A stretch of DNA of 8,126 bases, taken from the IMG/VR virus record IMGVR_UViG_2609460125_000011, one strand, 5' to 3'. A program made the translations under genes and the position numbers. Below the pieces are notes generated by a model, which was given only the letters and a program-made list of their open reading frames with translations, was not told the DNA's origin and did not search any database. This document shows positions 1 to 8,126 of the stretch, one piece after another; the first letter of the stretch is position 1, and every line of letters begins with the position of its first letter. This stretch comes from a virus. Lineage: Duplodnaviria > Heunggongvirae > Uroviricota > Caudoviricetes.

Positions 1-234
1 GGTGGAAAGCTTCTGGGGAACGCTGAAAAATGAGAGCCTGAGCCACTATCGTTTTAATAACCGGGATGTAAGCCATCTCAGTAATACGGGAATACATTGA
101 GATTTTCTACAATCGTCAGCGTTGTCACTCTCGTCTGGGGAATATCTCCCCGGCAGCCTTCAGGGAAAAATATCATCAGATGGCTGCTTAAAAAAAGAAC
201 AAATGGTAGTGTCCGCTATTGCCAGTACACCTCA
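1..234 (+). mobile_element. 3' end of an IS3-family (IS600-like) insertion sequence, partial; continues left of the window and ends with terminal ...CACCTCA at 234
   Basis: Bases 1-234 are about 98% identical to the reverse complement of 6903-7136. They encode the conserved IS3-family OrfB C-terminus (ESFWGTLKNESLSHYRFNNRD...RRHSRLGNISPAAFREKYHQMAA) followed by a terminal inverted repeat ending in CA. Confidence 0.8.
2..190 (+). pseudogene. IS3-family transposase OrfB C-terminal fragment, frameshifted
   Basis: Translation gives VESFWGTLKNESLSHYRFNNRD, then loses frame at an extra T near position 69 (gatgTaagcc versus gatgaagcc in the other copy). The frame is regained only conceptually, ending ...FREKYHQMAA with stop at 188-190. 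Confidence 0.7.
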
Positions 235-395
235 TTCAGATATGTCAGCAGCCCAAACAGCAGACTCCCCAGCACGCCTATTGCCGCCCACTGAGACGGG
301 GAAACCCTGTCCAGCAACTGCAGGAACCAGTAGCCCGTTCCCACCGCTGACGTGGTGTATGACACACCTGTTGTGATTTTTTCCATCTGGTCCAT
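216..395 (-). pseudogene. S21-type (class II, pinholin-like) holin, 3'-truncated by IS insertion
   Basis: Translation from ATG at 395 is [54 protein letters not shown], with the dual-start Met1/Met4 motif and two hydrophobic segments typical of S21 holins. A GGAG Shine-Dalgarno sits 7 nt upstream. The frame enters the IS terminal repeat at 234/235 and stops at 216 after IS-derived codons (EVYWQ); the charged C-terminal tail is missing. Confidence 0.75.
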
Positions 396-1150: not shown

Positions 1151-1486
1151 ATGAAGTGGATTGTGATTGATACAGTTATCCAGCCATCATGCGGAATATC
1201 TTTTTCAGTCATATGGAGTAAAATAAAATTAATAATCTGGTATCAATCGGATGCTTTCTTACCTCCTGAAAGTATATTTACACTGACTCACACAGGCATC
1301 ATGCTCAATAACAAAGTGCTACCTGTAACCATTTACAACGTAGTACCATTCAATAAAACATTCTGGAATTTAATCAAAAACAGCCAGGAATGCCCTACAA
1401 ATACAGATAACGTATTGAATGAATGCTTTAATAACCGTTGCACTCTGCAAATATGTCCTTATGGACTAAAACAACAAAGTCCATAA
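1151..1486 (+). CDS. Hypothetical AT-rich cargo protein with a C-terminal four-cysteine cluster
   Basis: 111-codon ORF with AGGAA Shine-Dalgarno 6 nt before ATG, AT-rich upstream region with a TATACT -10-like hexamer, and low GC relative to neighbours. Six of 13 Ile codons are AUA. C-terminus reads [27 protein letters not shown]. No homolog recognised. Confidence 0.5.
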
Positions 1487-1489: not shown

Positions 1490-1521
1490 GTTTACTCACA
1501 TCTGACAAAATCAATATAAAC

Positions 1522-1541
1522 AGCCCCTCCGGAGAGGGGCT
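1522..1541 (-). terminator. Rho-independent terminator for minus-strand transcripts leaving the cargo region
   Basis: AGCCCCTC-tccg-GAGGGGCT hairpin (8-bp GC-rich stem) followed on the minus strand by GUUUAUAUUGAUUUUG. The plus-strand side lacks a U-tract. Confidence 0.5.
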
Positions 1542-1933
1542 GGAGAGTGGCGCTATGTGCCATTCCATGGTGCCGGGTGCCTCCCGGTGAATTCAGTACC
1601 AGCACCTGAATCCGCGATTATCCCATATACCTACTCGCTGATTGCCCCTCCGCACAGGGGGATTCACCATGCCAGTTTCTTTTAACAAACTCCCCGCAAA
1701 CCAGACAACAGTCAACCGCCTGAATTGTGAAGTATTTAAAAATTTCTCCCGCTAACTGATACCCGGCTAACAGTCTGGCGTTTTCTTTTTCAGCAACGGG
1801 AAAGCAACAACCACCACACCCGCCACCAGCACACCGTCAGCCGGCACTGACATTATCCGGCTGCTGCAATGCCATTAACAAAAACAGTAAGCAATCACTT
1901 TTTACCGTAACAGGTGATAATCCAGATATGTAT

Positions 1934-2287
1934 CTACCCCAGATGAGTAATCCGAAGTTCATCCATACCACAGGTCCTGGCTATTCTGTTGTACTCCTGA
2001 ACAAGAGCAAATAATTCTGAATTAGCAACCATGAACTCATCGCAAACCCTCTGTATAGCATCACTATTCAGAATAATAACGTCTCTTCCCGAAAGACGAT
2101 CAGGAGTACAGAACAAAACTGTCAAACGGCTGAAGGCCTTTGCTCGTGCTGCATTGACTATATCAATACGCTGCCTAAGGATGAAACACCCCGACGCCTC
2201 ATCAATATTCACTCTACCCACACCATATGAATGATAAATACTTAATGCTGAAAAAACCATTAGACCGTATAACAAATACTCAATCAA
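1934..2287 (-). CDS. Hypothetical cargo protein directly downstream of the phage tRNA genes
   Basis: 117-codon ORF with hydrophobic N-terminus (MIEYLLYGLMVFSALSIY...). Six of 11 Arg codons are AGA/AGG and 3 of 11 Ile codons are AUA, matching the adjacent tRNAs. Start is TTG, or ATG at codon 10, with no convincing Shine-Dalgarno, so expression is uncertain. Confidence 0.35.
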   Translation of the reverse strand: MIEYLLYGLMVFSALSIYHSYGVGRVNIDEASGCFILRQRIDIVNAARAKAFSRLTVLFCTPDRLSGRDVIILNSDAIQRVCDEFMVANSELFALVQEYNRIARTCGMDELRITHLG

Positions 2288-2397
2288 TACTTAACAGAAC
2301 TTTTATTTTTGACAAATATATAATATTTTCAACAATATCCTGAGCCAGGTATATTTCAGTATAAGGCTCTGCCGGAAGGAATCTGGAAGAATGAATA

Positions 2398-2474
2398 TGG
2401 CGCGCTGTACTGGATTCGAACCAGTGACCGATTGCTTAGAAGGCAATTGCTCTGTCCGGCTGAGCTAACAACGC
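2398..2474 (-). tRNA. tRNA-Arg (anticodon UCU), phage-type
   Basis: 77-nt cloverleaf on the minus strand: acceptor GCGUUGU/ACAGCGC, D-stem GCUC/GAGC, anticodon stem AUUGC/GCAAU with loop CUUCUAA, T-arm ACUGG-UUCGAAU-CCAGU, discriminator G, encoded CCA. Differs from chromosomal argU. Confidence 0.85.
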
Positions 2475-2575: not shown

Positions 2576-2651
2576 TGGTGGCCCTTGCTGGATTTGAACC
2601 AGCGACCTGGCGATTATGAGTCGCTCGCTCTCACCACTGAGCTAAAGGGCC
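2576..2651 (-). tRNA. tRNA-Ile2 (anticodon CAU, lysidine type; ileX/ileZ-like)
   Basis: 76-nt cloverleaf: GGCCCUUUAGCUCAGUGGUGAGAGCGAGCGACUCAUAAUCGCCAGGUCGCUGGUUCAAAUCCAGCAAGGGCCACCA. Close to E. coli ileX in arms and anticodon stem-loop, and not like tRNA-Met. Confidence 0.8.
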
Positions 2652-2690
2652 GGGAGCAGAATAATAACGGTCCGTAATTAATTTCGCAAT

Positions 2691-2715
2691 AAAAAAACCC
2701 GCTCAGCGGCGGGTT
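2691..2715 (-). terminator. tR'-like intrinsic terminator of the short late leader RNA
   Basis: Minus strand reads CCCGCCGCUGAGCGGG followed by a 7-U tract, about 50 nt downstream of the late promoter. Confidence 0.65.
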
Positions 2716-2762
2716 GTAGAAACTCTTCTAACGCCAGGCATAAAACGCCCATCATTATGACG

Positions 2763-2790
2763 AATTTACCACAGATTCCGGAAAAATCAA
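2763..2790 (-). promoter_or_regulatory. Putative late promoter (pR'-like) downstream of Q
   Basis: Minus strand TTGATT (-35), 16-nt spacer, TAAATT (-10), immediately after the Q stop codon and upstream of the tR'-like terminator. Confidence 0.5.
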
Positions 2791-2795
2791 CCTTG

Positions 2796-3617
2796 TTACC
2801 TAGTTACCTTTTTTAACTGCCGCTCAGCCCATGCTTCTTCAATATCAAACCGGGTCACCAGCGCATCATAAAATTTCTTAACTGTTTTTTCCCATGACGC
2901 GCGTGTTATCTGGTTTGTCACCTCGCATATAGCATTAAATGCCTCCGTTGATGGTAGTCTTTCATAGCCACGACCACCACAACGCTGGCAGTCTCTGATA
3001 ACAGGCATACCACGTTTTACCGACTCTTCACGATGAATGGCGACACCACGCCCACGGCAATCCTTACAGGCGGTGGAAACCTCACCCTTTCCGCCACACT
3101 CCGGACAGGCAACTTTTACCACCTCCCTGACTTTTTTCCATTCTTCCCAGTAAGACGGATACACACCTTTCGTACACTTTGCCCATACCGGCGGCTTACC
3201 ATCCGGATACTGGATCTTGTTTGTAAAAACTATGCTTTCAATAAATTTTTCCCCATAGCAACAAGGGCACTGCTTTTTACTCGCTGCGCTGCGGGCATAA
3301 TCCTCAAAAGCGTACGAAGCCATAATGCGCATCACTACCGGTTTTATTTCTGCCGGAAGTTTTCTCAACGCCGCCACACGATCGCACCGACTGAGTGCAT
3401 AATCTGCCAGTAATTCTGTTGCCCGCGCCCTGTCATTCATACTGATGCCCATTTTCCCCAGGAACGCAGAAAAACCCATCTCAGCCCGATTCTGTGTCAT
3501 GCCCTGCGCGGCCATCACATCAGTGATACTCAGCGCATCTTTTGACGTTGAGGCCGATGCATCGGTCAGGCCAGGGGATTTTGGGGAGTAGTATTTCGGT
3601 AAATCTTCCAGTTTCAT
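2796..3617 (-). CDS. Late-gene antiterminator Q-like protein with a DnaJ-like cysteine-rich repeat region
   Basis: 273-codon ORF placed where Q sits in lambdoid phages (after the nin/rusA region, before the late promoter, tR', tRNAs and holin). Contains CPCCYGEK, CPECGGKG, CKDCRGRG and CQRCGGRG motifs. Resembles the QuuQ/YdfT family from memory. Confidence 0.7.
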   Translation of the reverse strand: MKLEDLPKYYSPKSPGLTDASASTSKDALSITDVMAAQGMTQNRAEMGFSAFLGKMGISMNDRARATELLADYALSRCDRVAALRKLPAEIKPVVMRIMASYAFEDYARSAASKKQCPCCYGEKFIESIVFTNKIQYPDGKPPVWAKCTKGVYPSYWEEWKKVREVVKVACPECGGKGEVSTACKDCRGRGVAIHREESVKRGMPVIRDCQRCGGRGYERLPSTEAFNAICEVTNQITRASWEKTVKKFYDALVTRFDIEEAWAERQLKKVTR

Positions 3618-6700: not shown

Positions 6701-6946
6701 AAAGTAGTCGTAAGAACGGTGATCACTGTCCGCTTTGTGCCAGGAGCAGCCATTGCTAAGTCCATCCTGTATTGTGCAGGTCAGCTCTTTTTTAAAGAGT
6801 CCGGCCATCATCTTACTGGTACAGACACCATATACTTTGTGACGGTCAGGCTACATATGCACAACTCAACTTATTCATCTATTTTTTGCTTTAGCATGTC
6901 AGTGAGGTGTACTGGCAATAGCGGACACTACCATTTGTTCTTTTTT

Positions 6947-7734
6947 TAAGCAGCCATCTGATGATATTTTTCCCTGAAGGCTGCCGGGGAGATATTCCCC
7001 AGACGAGAGTGACGACGCTGACGATTGTAGAAAATCTCAATGTATTCCCGTATTACTGAGATGGCTTCATCCCGGTTATTAAACGATAGTGGCTCGGGCT
7101 CTCATTTTCAGCGTTCCCCAGAAGCTTTCCATCGGAGCGTTGTCGTAACAGTTACCTTTACGCGACATTGATGTTTCAGACCAGACTGCTCCTGTATGAC
7201 CCGGTAATCGTATGCGCAGTACTGTGAACCTCGATCAGAGTGGTGGATTAGCCCGGCAGGTGGGCGCTGGCTCCTGAGCGCCATAAACAGGGCTTTACCT
7301 GTCAGCTCTTTTGTCATGCGCTCTCCCATGGCGTAGCCGACAATTTCGCACGTATAAACATCTTTGATGCCAGCAACATACGTCAGGTCCGCCACCCAGA
7401 CCTGATTTGGTGCTGTAGGAGCGAACGTCTGGTTCAGCAGATTTGGCGCAACTGGCAGATTGTGGTTCGGGTTCGTAGTCGCTCTGAACTTGCGTTTCTG
7501 CTTACAGCGTAGCCTCAGCTCCTTACGAAGACGTGCCAGTCGGTCACGACCAACGATGATGCCATTCTCTGCCAGCTCCGTCTGGAGCCGCCGGGTTCCA
7601 TATGTTTCGCGAGTGCGGATATGTGCCACCTTAATCTCCGGTTTTAGCCGCTCATCACTTTGTTTTCTGTCTGAGGGTTCATGCTGTACCCAGTTGTAAT
7701 AACCGCTCCTGGATACACCAAATACCTGACACAT
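6947..7734 (-). pseudogene. IS3-family transposase OrfB (DDE catalytic domain), frameshifted and internally deleted
   Basis: MCQVFGVSRSGYYNWV...NQVWVADLTYV-AGIKDVYTCEIVGYAMGERMT...LIHHSDRGSQYCAYDY, then loses frame. The conserved C-terminus MSRKGNCYDNAPMESFWGTLK...FREKYHQMAA is present out of frame with single-base losses in A and T runs. The segment after DLTYV that normally carries the conserved GWLYL motif is absent. Confidence 0.75.
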
Positions 7735-7813
7735 CGCTTCAATGGGAAATTGTTGTCGCCATTGTTCGATTAACGCGTATTTTTCAGCGACTCCTGTGCA
7801 AAATACGCTGTTG

Positions 7814-7820
7814 CTTTTTT
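7814..7820 (-). other. A6G slippery heptamer (programmed -1 frameshift site) of the IS3-family transposase
   Basis: Minus strand AAAAAAG inside ...GATATATTAAAAAAGCAA..., at the orfA/orfB overlap as in IS3-family elements. Confidence 0.5.
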
Positions 7821-7848
7821 AATATATCTCGCTCAAGGCGAGCTTCAT

Positions 7849-8037
7849 TTAACGCCTTACGCAGTTGCAGAATTTCAGATTCCAGTTCAGCCACCGTGCG
7901 GTAACCAGGAGTCCTGAGCTCCCTTCAGGCGGCGGTAACCCATAAGCGCCTTCACTGATCGAAAGTTGATTTTCAAGAACCGTTCTGACAGCTTCGGCTT
8001 TGAACTCTTTAGAGTAACGTTGGGTTTTTCTGCTCAT
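7849..8037 (-). pseudogene. IS3-family transposase OrfA (helix-turn-helix N-terminus), disrupted
   Basis: MSRKTQRYSKEFKAEAVRTVLENQLSISEGA... starts at 8037 with a Shine-Dalgarno upstream. The frame is lost before the conserved TVAELESEILQLRKALNEARLERDILKK segment, which is present only in another frame, implying an internal indel. Confidence 0.75.
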
Positions 8038-8126
8038 TATTAGCTCCTTCTGATGCCATTCTATTTCAGGAAGGAGTGTCCGTTAAACTCAGGCTACCTC
8101 ATTTCCTTCGTTTATTTGCATGAATA

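What the first reader, a model, noticed from the sequence alone, without database searches (positions are those of the whole stretch)
1934..2287. 117-aa ORF next to the phage tRNAs is strongly enriched for the rare codons they decode
Six of its 11 Arg codons are AGA/AGG and 3 of 11 Ile codons are AUA, far above typical E. coli usage. The genes immediately upstream on the same strand are tRNA-Arg(UCU) and tRNA-Ile(CAU), the same tRNA-to-rare-codon pairing described for stx in Stx phages. The ORF has a hydrophobic N-terminus, possibly a signal peptide or membrane anchor, but no clear Shine-Dalgarno and a TTG or internal ATG start, so it could be leaderless, coupled, or a decayed gene.
Basis: seen in the sequence. 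Interest (0 to 1): 0.7.

Follow-up and report, generated by a model that had tools for sequence, protein, structure and literature searches.

The report
Unannotated small prophage late-region gene
The flagged ORF is a real small prophage gene of unknown function that standard annotation misses, but its true start lies 25 codons further in, and its rare codons reflect ordinary AT-rich phage composition rather than a special pairing with the neighbouring tRNAs.

Summary
The ORF, codon counts and upstream tRNAs are as described. AGA/AGG is 6 of 11 Arg codons and AUA 3 of 11 Ile codons. tRNA-Ile2(CAU) and tRNA-Arg(UCU) lie upstream on the same strand.

The enrichment holds only against average E. 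coli usage (P about 2e-5 for AGR). It disappears against the ORF's own base composition (P 0.35 and 0.75) and against dinucleotide shuffles (P 0.26). Another frame holds more of these triplets (14 versus 9), and nearby phage genes are similar (P 0.27).

All AGR codons sit at non-conserved positions. The four conserved Arg are CGN.

The 3' 92 codons (GTG 2212 to stop 1934, minus strand) are a genuine gene:
- It matches phrog_2873, function unknown, at E 5.6e-58.
- dN/dS is about 0.26.
- Homologs of 91-110 aa occur in at least seven genera of Enterobacterales.
- In the lambdoid prophages examined (six genera) it lies between antiterminator Q and the lysis genes.

The hydrophobic 25-codon N-terminal extension is not conserved: other lineages carry a stop or a frameshift there.

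RefSeq left this type unannotated in all 54 sampled genomes; the region matches in 1315 of 5426 genomes.

The predicted fold is a soluble two-helix hairpin with no informative match. Function remains unknown. This is ordinary late-region phage cargo of modest interest.

The parts
1934..2212 (-). Conserved coding core: GTG start at 2212, 92 aa, TAG stop at 1934-1936. Member of phrog_2873. Predicted soluble two-helix hairpin, 10.4 kDa, pI 5.7.
   Evidence: phrog_2873 E 5.6e-58. Most distant homologs (91-99 aa) align only to ORF residues 26-117. dN/dS 0.26-0.27 with dS about 1 and an excess of third-position changes. The PGAP ortholog WP_001017777.1 starts at the equivalent GTG. AF2 pLDDT 89.
2213..2287 (-). 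In-frame upstream extension of 25 codons (TTG 2287, TTG 2275, ATG 2260), the 'hydrophobic N-terminus'. Probably untranslated 5' leader.
   Evidence: Stop codon in L005 and a 4-nt frameshift in L004. In the L003/L004 lineage, 92-aa calls (59 members) outnumber extended calls (5 members). Polymorphism is 1 synonymous to 6 non-synonymous. No SD. AF2 pLDDT below 50 for residues 1-11.
2398..2474 (-). tRNA-Arg, anticodon UCU (reads AGA and, by wobble, AGG).
   Evidence: ARAGORN, Rfam tRNA 68 bits, PGAP tRNA-Arg.
2576..2651 (-). tRNA with CAU anticodon, of the tRNA-Ile2 (lysidine) type that reads AUA.
   Evidence: ARAGORN calls it Met(cat). PGAP annotates it tRNA-Ile in MS6198 and JNE131328. Rfam tRNA 72.5 bits.
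2696..2715 (-). Intrinsic terminator between Q and the tRNAs, in the position of lambda tR' (the terminator that Q overrides).
   Evidence: Seven-pair stem plus TTTTTTT. The tR' role is inferred from its position just downstream of Q.
2763..2790 (-). Putative late promoter pR' (TTGATT, 16 nt, TAAATT) just after the Q stop codon.
   Evidence: Read directly from the sequence. It scores 8 of 12 to consensus, below the scan threshold. Inference only.
2796..3617 (-). Antitermination protein Q.
   Evidence: Pfam PF03589 E 6.3e-55; PGAP 'antitermination protein'.
2661..2689 (-). Sigma-70-like promoter (TTGCGA, 17 nt, TATTAT) directly upstream of tRNA-Ile2. If active in lysogens it would also transcribe the ORF.
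   Evidence: Consensus scan, 9 of 12. Not evidence of function.
2305..2332 (-). Weak promoter-like site (TTGAAA, 16 nt, AAAAAT) between tRNA-Arg and the ORF.
   Evidence: Consensus scan, 9 of 12. Not evidence of function.
1767..1898 (-). DUF3927 small gene downstream of the ORF. The 43-aa form carries a premature TAA here. The 28-aa form (1853..1767) remains open.
   Evidence: Alignment with MS6198. Pfam DUF3927 E 2.4e-14 for the short form.
1512..1701 (-). STnc100-family prophage sRNA, ending at a strong terminator (1521-1542) that closes this transcription stretch.
   Evidence: Rfam RF02076, 124 bits, full length. Terminator.

Best explanation
Shown:
- The last 92 codons of the flagged ORF (GTG 2212 to TAG 1934, minus strand) are a genuine gene under purifying selection.
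- It belongs to a small family of 91-110 aa proteins of unknown function (phrog_2873) found in Enterobacterales.
- In the lambdoid prophages examined it occupies a constant slot: downstream of antiterminator Q and any tRNA cargo, and upstream of the holin/lysis cassette.
- The 25 upstream in-frame codons are an accidental open stretch, not part of the family protein.
- The AGA/AGG/AUA content follows from the gene's AT-rich composition. These codons occur only at positions free to swap between Arg, Lys, Ser and Gly.

Inferred:
- The gene is transcribed as early cargo of the Q-dependent late transcript, and possibly also by read-through from a tRNA promoter in lysogens.
- The prophage tRNA-Arg(UCU) and tRNA-Ile2 serve the whole prophage, whose genes use about 19-20% AGR and 19-27% AUA. 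The ORF benefits like its neighbours rather than being a dedicated partner.
- The product is a soluble, mildly acidic antiparallel two-helix hairpin.

Guess: it acts by binding another protein late in infection, for example in lysis timing or host takeover.

The confidence given applies to the shown and inferred points. The guessed biochemical role alone would rate about 0.15.
For: Gene reality:
- phrog_2873 at E 5.6e-58, with 9 of 9 family members matching.
- A profile search of 1.84 billion representatives gives 22 hits. Full-length ones of 91-95 aa align to ORF positions 26-117.
- Homologs occur in E. coli, Citrobacter, Salmonella, Morganella, Serratia, Xenorhabdus and Yersinia.
- dN/dS is 0.27, 0.26 and 0.26 among three E. 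coli lineages with dS of 0.9-1.1. Differences by codon position are 24/23/43 and 19/19/39.
- Random substitution at that divergence keeps the frame open only 8-11% of the time.
- 120 of 121 close copies are intact.

Start:
- PGAP starts the L005 ortholog at the equivalent GTG, which has an AGGAG 4 nt upstream.
- GTG 2212 has the best anti-SD duplex of the 5' candidates, -4.5 kcal/mol.
- GTG 2212 is present in every close haplotype, and its upstream 12 nt are identical in all but 2 of 122 copies.

Position: Q ... gene ... holin or lysozyme in L004, L005, L007, L009/L010, L015/L016, L017/L018 and L140.

Transcription: a tR'-like terminator lies at 2715-2696, and none lies between the tRNAs and the gene.

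Codons:
- Composition, shuffle and six-frame tests.
- Prophage-wide usage.
- The conserved R40, R48, R54 and R64 are all CGN, while the AGR codons align with L, Q, K, N, E, G or S in the other lineages.

Fold: AF2 pLDDT 89.3, helices 3-34 and 50-81.
Against: - No expression or translation data exist for this copy.
- Its SD-like element (GTGGGT) is weak and the start is GTG.
- In the 54 sampled full-length matches, PGAP annotates no CDS on this sequence type.
- Within-lineage polymorphism in the core (6 synonymous, 10 non-synonymous) shows only mild constraint.
- The set of 121 close copies was selected by peptide match, which biases it towards intact frames.
- AGR use in the core (5 of 10) is nominally higher than in pooled late genes of the same prophage (24 of 128, Fisher P=0.034), so a small extra bias cannot be excluded.
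- pR' is assigned by eye, at 8 of 12 to consensus.
- The proposed biochemical role has no direct support.
Confidence: 0.67

Rival explanations
1. In this sequence type, the most common one in E. coli, the gene is a silent relic. The frame is still open, but the ribosome-binding site has decayed and no protein is made.
For: - Weak SD-like GTGGGT compared with AGGAG in the L005 ortholog.
- GTG start.
- PGAP annotated no CDS in any of the 54 sampled genomes of this type.
- Within-lineage pN/pS is only about 0.5, based on 16 sites.
- At 4% divergence or less, an intact frame is weak evidence of function.
Against: - 120 of 121 copies across 26 haplotypes are intact, and GTG 2212 is present in all of them with a nearly invariant upstream element.
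- Third-position changes are still in excess in the core (9 of 16), unlike in the extension.
- The L003/L004 lineage also lacks a strong SD yet keeps the core under dN/dS of 0.26.
Confidence: 0.17
2. The full 117-aa ORF (or the 108-aa form from ATG 2260) is translated, giving a membrane-anchored or secreted version. Its expression depends on the adjacent tRNAs, in the way proposed for stx.
For: - The extension is open in this lineage and in L003.
- It is moderately hydrophobic, with a Kyte-Doolittle 15-residue maximum of 1.67.
- Gene callers in other collections, 118-aa or 108-aa products.
- The tRNAs match the rare codons.
Against: - No SD at any upstream start.
- The extension is interrupted by a stop in L005 and a frameshift in L004, and most distant homologs lack it (four carry an unrelated extension of about 11 aa).
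- Its polymorphism is 1 synonymous to 6 non-synonymous.
- The 19-residue hydropathy of 1.28 is below the usual transmembrane threshold, and there is an acidic residue at position 3.
- AF2 confidence is below 50 there.
- The codon bias is explained by composition and is not frame-specific.
Confidence: 0.08
3. The family is a small anti-activator that binds AraC-type regulators, working like the ANR proteins (Aar, Rnr, Cnr).
For: - In the L003/L004 lineage the core GTG lies about 94 nt downstream of a YdeO/GadX-like AraC-family gene (the open upstream extension begins only 21 nt after its stop), in the slot that stx occupies in Stx phages.
- L008 has a GerE-type regulator upstream.
- A plasmid subfamily lies next to a PapB-regulated fimbrial operon.
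- ANRs are small, all-helical, oligomeric proteins that accompany AraC regulators (PMC4983702).
Against: - Most contexts, including this window, have no AraC-type neighbour.
- The ANR signature is absent: the window protein has no Trp at all.
- The fold has two long helices in 92 aa, not three helices in under 10 kDa.
Confidence: 0.06
4. The stretch is non-coding, for example a tRNA trailer or sRNA precursor, or the real gene is the opposite-strand ORF (2031-2234, 67 aa).
For: - RefSeq has no CDS here.
- One phage record (mEp460_ev081) annotates a 38-aa ORF on the opposite strand.
- An STnc100 sRNA lies downstream.
Against: - The substitution pattern is codon-periodic in the minus-strand frame.
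- The other five frames hold 4-12 stops.
- Protein-level homologs persist down to about 20% identity.
- No Rfam family matches 1934-2287.
Confidence: 0.02

Closest known systems
phrog_2873 (PHROGs v4, function unknown), with the related phrog_4827
   Same: The core aligns end to end with the profile (positions 17-108 of 108) at E 5.6e-58. All nine family members tested match it.
   Different: Nothing separates it from the family. The family has no assigned function, no Pfam or NCBIfam model and no solved structure.
The tRNA (ileZ, argN, argO) and stx arrangement downstream of Q in Stx phages such as 933W
   Same: The layout is the same: Q, a late promoter and terminator, tRNA-Ile2 and tRNA-Arg, then a cargo gene, then lysis genes. 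In L004 the homolog and an AraC-like gene sit exactly where stx would be, upstream of a nanS-p-type esterase. That these tRNAs read ATA and AGA/AGG, and that these codons are common in Stx-phage genes, is from my own recollection of Plunkett et al. 1999. A library search for the tRNA gene names found nothing.
   Different: The cargo is not a toxin. Its codon bias is no greater than composition predicts. Its relatives occur with other tRNAs or with none.
Lambdoid 'morons': accessory genes inserted in the late region, such as bor/iss, lom and stx
   Same: It is a small AT-rich accessory gene (41-44% GC against 48% for the window). It lies at a known insertion hot spot, is present in some related prophages and absent from others, and moves as a cassette: DNA homology with L005 is limited to the gene itself.
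   Different: Classical morons carry their own promoter and terminator. Here only weak consensus matches were found. The position is unusually constant across genera.
ANR (AraC negative regulator) family: Aar, Rnr, Cnr
   Same: Small all-helical proteins, in some lineages encoded next to an AraC-family regulator.
   Different: The ANR sequence signature and three-helix layout are not met. Most family members have no AraC neighbour.

Membership tests
phrog_2873 | Significant full-length match to the family HMM | tested here: met
   E 5.6e-58, 194.8 bits, protein 1-92 on profile 17-108 of 108.
phrog_2873 | Phage or prophage context | tested here: met
   Lambdoid prophage between Q and holin. 175 relatives were found in IMG/VR viral contigs.
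Protein-coding gene (as opposed to a chance ORF) | Purifying selection and frame conservation across diverged copies | tested here: met
   Met for codons 26-117: dN/dS 0.26-0.27, no indels at 67-72% nucleotide identity, and an excess of third-position changes. Not met for codons 1-25.
Protein-coding gene (as opposed to a chance ORF) | Demonstrated translation | not testable with these tools
   No ribosome profiling or proteomics data were available for a strain carrying this copy.
Dedicated tRNA and rare-codon pairing (the Stx-phage model) | Rare-codon use above what base composition and neighbouring genes give | tested here: not met
   P=0.35 (AGR) and 0.75 (ATA) against composition. P=0.26 against dinucleotide shuffles. 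Another frame has 14 triplets against 9. P=0.27 against the Q-to-ydfR genes.
Dedicated tRNA and rare-codon pairing (the Stx-phage model) | Rare codons and cognate tRNAs co-occur across relatives | tested here: not met
   Neighbouring tRNAs are Thr, Asn, Gly, Met/Ile, Arg(TCG) or none, while AGR use stays at about 30%. AGR codons occur only at non-conserved sites.
Dedicated tRNA and rare-codon pairing (the Stx-phage model) | Cognate tRNA genes upstream in the same transcription unit | tested here: met
   tRNA-Ile2 and tRNA-Arg(UCU) lie on the same strand, with no terminator before the gene.
Secreted or membrane protein (signal peptide or TM anchor) | A conserved hydrophobic N-terminal segment of TM or signal-peptide character | tested here: not met
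   No homolog conserves this extension, and most lack any. Kyte-Doolittle 19-residue maximum is 1.28, with no basic n-region. No dedicated predictor was available.
ANR (AraC negative regulators) | Under 10 kDa, three helices, signature with conserved A10, E14, A22, W26, A29, W43 and R47 (PMC4983702) | tested here: not met
   10.4 kDa, two long helices, no Trp in the window protein. Signature taken.
ANR (AraC negative regulators) | Binds and inhibits an AraC-family partner | not testable with these tools
   Only adjacency to a YdeO-like gene in one lineage.
GapR / UPF0335 (DUF2312) | Significant sequence or fold match | tested here: not met
   Best PDB profile hit E 0.037, over 38 residues of one helix. 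No Pfam DUF2312 hit. Foldseek found nothing below E 0.1.
Moron (autonomous accessory cassette) | Own promoter and terminator flanking the gene | tested here: inconclusive
   Only 9-of-12 consensus promoter matches. The nearest strong terminator lies about 400 nt downstream, after DUF3927 and STnc100.

The most novel reading that the evidence does not exclude
phrog_2873 proteins are a conserved late-operon factor of lambdoid prophages. In prophages of six genera the gene lies between Q and the lysis genes, and it directly precedes the lysis cassette in Morganella, Serratia and Yersinia. The soluble helical hairpin would bind a partner, either the holin or lysis machinery to set lysis timing, or a host or prophage transcription regulator such as the adjacent YdeO-like protein. 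RefSeq left this gene unannotated in all 54 sampled genomes of this type, and the region is matched in roughly a fifth to a quarter of complete E. coli genomes, so it would be a widespread overlooked phage regulator.
Probability: 0.15. Interest if true: 0.5.

Novelty: new member of a known kind. Interest (0 to 1): 0.25.

Why it matters
1. Annotation. A gene under purifying selection lies in a region matched in 1315 of 5426 complete E. coli genomes (1183 at 80% or more of the query). It had no RefSeq CDS in any of the 54 sampled genomes of this type. Other collections annotate it with the wrong start, which adds a spurious hydrophobic N-terminus.

2. Method. High AGA/AGG/AUA counts next to phage tRNAs are expected from AT-rich horizontally acquired DNA. 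They should be tested against composition, other frames and site conservation before being read as co-adaptation.

3. Biology. The family's constant slot at the head of the late operon, shared with stx, makes it a reasonable target for a knock-out or lysis-timing experiment. Nothing yet suggests an unusual mechanism.

Tried and rejected
- Pfam, NCBIfam and PADLOC scans of nine family members gave nothing above threshold. The only Pfam hit on the 117-aa form was RHIM at E 0.092, below the cut-off.
- A PDB profile search gave only weak one-helix hits to GapR/UPF0335 (E 0.037) and Rop. I treat these as coiled-coil noise.
- The afdb50 library was not available.
- A genome-contig scan found only E. 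coli, because the search patterns were narrow.
- A third profile iteration over 5.8 billion proteins found only 'hypothetical protein' names.
- The Xylella hit (E 1.6e-7) lies in a head-tail module, and I set it aside as probably unrelated.
- A literature search for ileZ, argN and argO returned nothing in the held library.
- A functional link between the family and tRNA genes as such: a tRNA lies within 650 nt upstream in six contexts, including a plasmid. I judged this positional, because the Q-to-S region is a tRNA hot spot, the anticodons vary, and three contexts have none.
- The internal terminator-like hairpin at 2098-2080 has 3 GC pairs. I rejected it as a functional terminator because it encodes the most conserved peptide motif (DRLSGRDVIIL).

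Full report
**Setting.** The window is a Qin/mEp460-like lambdoid prophage of E. coli, flanked by IS3-type elements. On the minus strand the order is:
- relB, relE, hokD, rem and a DUF968 protein
- RusA and antiterminator Q (2796-3617; Pfam Antiterm E 6.3e-55)
- a CAT-anticodon tRNA (2576-2651) and tRNA-Arg(TCT) (2398-2474)
- the flagged ORF (1934-2287)
- a DUF3927 mini-gene and an STnc100 sRNA (1512-1701)
- iraM on the opposite strand
- DUF1737 and a class II holin

PGAP annotates the CAT tRNA as tRNA-Ile, that is the lysidine-type Ile2 that reads AUA.

**The observation.** The counts are exact. The frame has 117 sense codons. Arg is AGA 3, AGG 3 and CGN 5. Ile is ATA 3, ATT 7 and ATC 1. GC is 41%, against 48% for the window.

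Against K-12-like usage (my figures: about 6% AGR and 7.5% ATA) the excess is real, at P=1.7e-5 and 0.044. It is not more than composition gives:
- The ORF's base frequencies predict 44% AGR and 32% ATA (P=0.35 and 0.75).
- Two thousand dinucleotide-preserving shuffles give 7.1 +/- 2.2 in-frame AGA+AGG+ATA against 9 observed (P=0.26).
- The six frames of the stretch carry 4, 14, 5, 9, 7 and 4 such triplets.
- In the closely related MS6198 prophage, late genes use 24 of 128 AGR and 20 of 104 ATA. Early genes use 17 of 87 and 15 of 55. The nearby Q-to-ydfR genes use 11 of 37 AGR.
- The ORF core, at 5 of 10 AGR, differs from the nearby set at P=0.27 and from all late genes at a nominal P=0.034.

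So the ORF is at the high end of a generally rare-codon-rich prophage, as expected for its lower GC.

**Where the rare codons sit.** I aligned the window gene with two E. coli lineages at 67-72% nucleotide identity. The four Arg conserved in all three (R40, R48, R54, R64) are all CGT or CGA. The window's AGR codons fall at positions that are L, Q/K, N/K, E or G/S in at least one of the other lineages; only R101 is also Arg (AGA) in L003. These are mostly one-step neighbours such as AAG, AGC and GGN. This is the signature of drift at unconstrained sites in AT-rich DNA, not of selection for tRNA-matched codons.

**Is it a gene?** Yes, but a shorter one.
- Five lines of evidence support the 3' 92 codons as a gene:
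 - They match phrog_2873 (function unknown) at E 5.6e-58.
 - HMMER searches of 1.84 and 5.8 billion proteins find a small family of 91-110 aa. It occurs in E. coli, Citrobacter, Salmonella, Morganella, Serratia, Xenorhabdus and Yersinia. Every member is named 'hypothetical'.
 - The distant members align to ORF residues 26-117 only.
 - Among three E. coli lineages, dN/dS is 0.26-0.27 at dS of about 1, with no indels and twice as many third-position changes.
 - Random substitution would keep the frame open only about 10% of the time.
- The 25-codon extension looks like a chance open stretch:
 - It is preceded by a stop in L005 and broken by a 4-nt slip in L004.
 - In the L003/L004 lineage, 92-aa gene calls (59 cluster members) outnumber extended ones (5 members).
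 - Across 26 close haplotypes it shows 1 synonymous and 6 non-synonymous segregating sites, against 6 and 10 in the core.
- GTG 2212 is the likely start:
 - PGAP starts the L005 ortholog (WP_001017777.1, 92 aa) at the equivalent GTG, behind an AGGAG.
 - In the window, GTG 2212 has the best anti-SD pairing of the 5' candidates (-4.5 kcal/mol, against -0.4 to -2.4 for the TTG and ATG starts). The GTG is present in every close copy, and its upstream element is identical in all but 2 of 122.
- The extension is a poor membrane anchor. Its hydropathy is below the usual transmembrane threshold and it lacks a basic n-region.

**Annotation status.** The region matches in 1315 of 5426 complete E. coli genomes, 1183 of them covering at least 80% of the query. 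None of the 54 full-length matches sampled evenly down the ranking has a CDS annotated there. One phage record annotates a 38-aa ORF on the wrong strand. Other collections, 118-aa or 108-aa products.

**Context and likely expression.** Just after the Q stop there is a lambda-like TTGATT, 16 nt, TAAATT pair. I read this by eye, and it scores 8 of 12 to consensus. About 50 nt further on lies an intrinsic terminator (2715-2696). This is the layout of pR' and tR'.

No terminator separates the tRNAs from the gene. The next strong one (1542-1521) follows STnc100. I therefore infer transcription by Q-modified polymerase as early late-operon cargo. Read-through from a promoter-like site in front of tRNA-Ile2 (2689-2661) is also possible.

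The slot is conserved. The family gene lies between Q and the lysis genes in E. coli (L004, L005, L007), Citrobacter (L009/L010), Morganella (L015/L016), Serratia (L017/L018) and Yersinia (L140). In Morganella, Serratia and Yersinia it directly precedes the lysis cassette. One subfamily sits on Rep3 plasmids beside a fimbrial operon.

The tRNAs near family members vary: Ile2 with Arg(TCT), Ile2 with Arg(TCG), Thr, Asn, Met/?/Gly, or none. AGR use stays near 30% throughout.

**Structure and function.** AlphaFold2 with a 23-sequence alignment gives a confident model (pLDDT 89.3) of an antiparallel two-helix hairpin, with helices 3-34 and 50-81. The most conserved motif (FSRLTVLFCTPDRxSG) runs from the end of helix 1 into the connecting loop.

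The protein is 10.4 kDa with a pI of 5.7. Fold and profile searches give only generic coiled-coil matches. Function is therefore unknown. I commit, with low confidence, to a soluble protein-binding accessory factor made with the late genes.

Two leads remain:
- Its recurrent place directly before the lysis cassette.
- In the L003/L004 lineage, a YdeO/GadX-like AraC regulator upstream; the core GTG lies about 94 nt after its stop, in the stx-equivalent slot. This recalls the ANR anti-activators, but the ANR signature is not met.

**Verdict.** It is partly wrong: there is no specific pairing and no conserved hydrophobic N-terminus, and the start is misplaced. The feature is an ordinary, uncharacterised piece of lambdoid late-region cargo that RefSeq misses.

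Noticed in passing
window 1512-1701 (minus strand): Full-length match to the prophage sRNA family STnc100 (RF02076, 124 bits), ending at a strong terminator (1542-1521). A 2026 preprint relates STnc100 to the PasD sRNAs.
   Followed up: partly
L004 3686-4665 and 6425-6637; L003 1551-1686: In strain JNE131328 there are five STnc100 copies. Four form a head-to-tail array just downstream of the phrog_2873 homolog and upstream of a nanS-p-type esterase. L003 also has one downstream.
   Followed up: no
window 1767-1898 (minus strand): The DUF3927 mini-gene has a premature TAA at codon 8 of the 43-aa form seen in MS6198. A 28-aa form (1853..1767) stays open, still matches Pfam DUF3927 (E 2.4e-14), and is what PGAP annotates in strain 504838. 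A DUF3927 gene also follows the family gene in Citrobacter (L009).
   Followed up: partly
L139 1999-2069 (E. coli 504838): A single 71-nt 'tRNA-Met' next to the ORF replaces the two tRNA genes. This looks like a deletion between the two tRNAs that would leave a hybrid gene.
   Followed up: no
L003 164-889; L004 5323-6048: A YdeO/GadX-like AraC-family regulator (241 aa, WP_000382067.1) lies upstream of the diverged homolog: the homolog's open extension starts 21 nt after its stop and its core GTG about 94 nt after. The pair occupies the slot that stx holds in Stx phages.
   Followed up: partly
L012-L014 5347-5419 and 6001-6276: Rep3 plasmids carry a family member (about 33% identity) with a tRNA-Thr(TGT)-like gene 580 nt upstream, beside a PapB/usher/chaperone fimbrial operon. 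This is possibly a fragment of a phage late region captured by a plasmid.
   Followed up: no
window 1151-1486 (plus strand): iraM, the anti-adaptor for RssB, is carried in the late region on the opposite strand. It is very AT-rich (35% GC), with 6 of 13 Ile codons ATA, which is more AUA-rich than the flagged ORF.
   Followed up: no
window 1-230 and about 6890-8126: IS3-family element sequences lie at both ends in inverted orientation, with nearly identical ORFs at 97-294 (plus) and 6891-7040 (minus). The transposase reading frames look interrupted.
   Followed up: no
window 2689-2790 (minus strand): The putative pR' and the terminator at 2715-2696 would yield a short leader RNA of roughly 60-70 nt. 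This is analogous to lambda 6S RNA and to the StxS sRNA of Stx phages (PMC7547250, title and abstract only).
   Followed up: no
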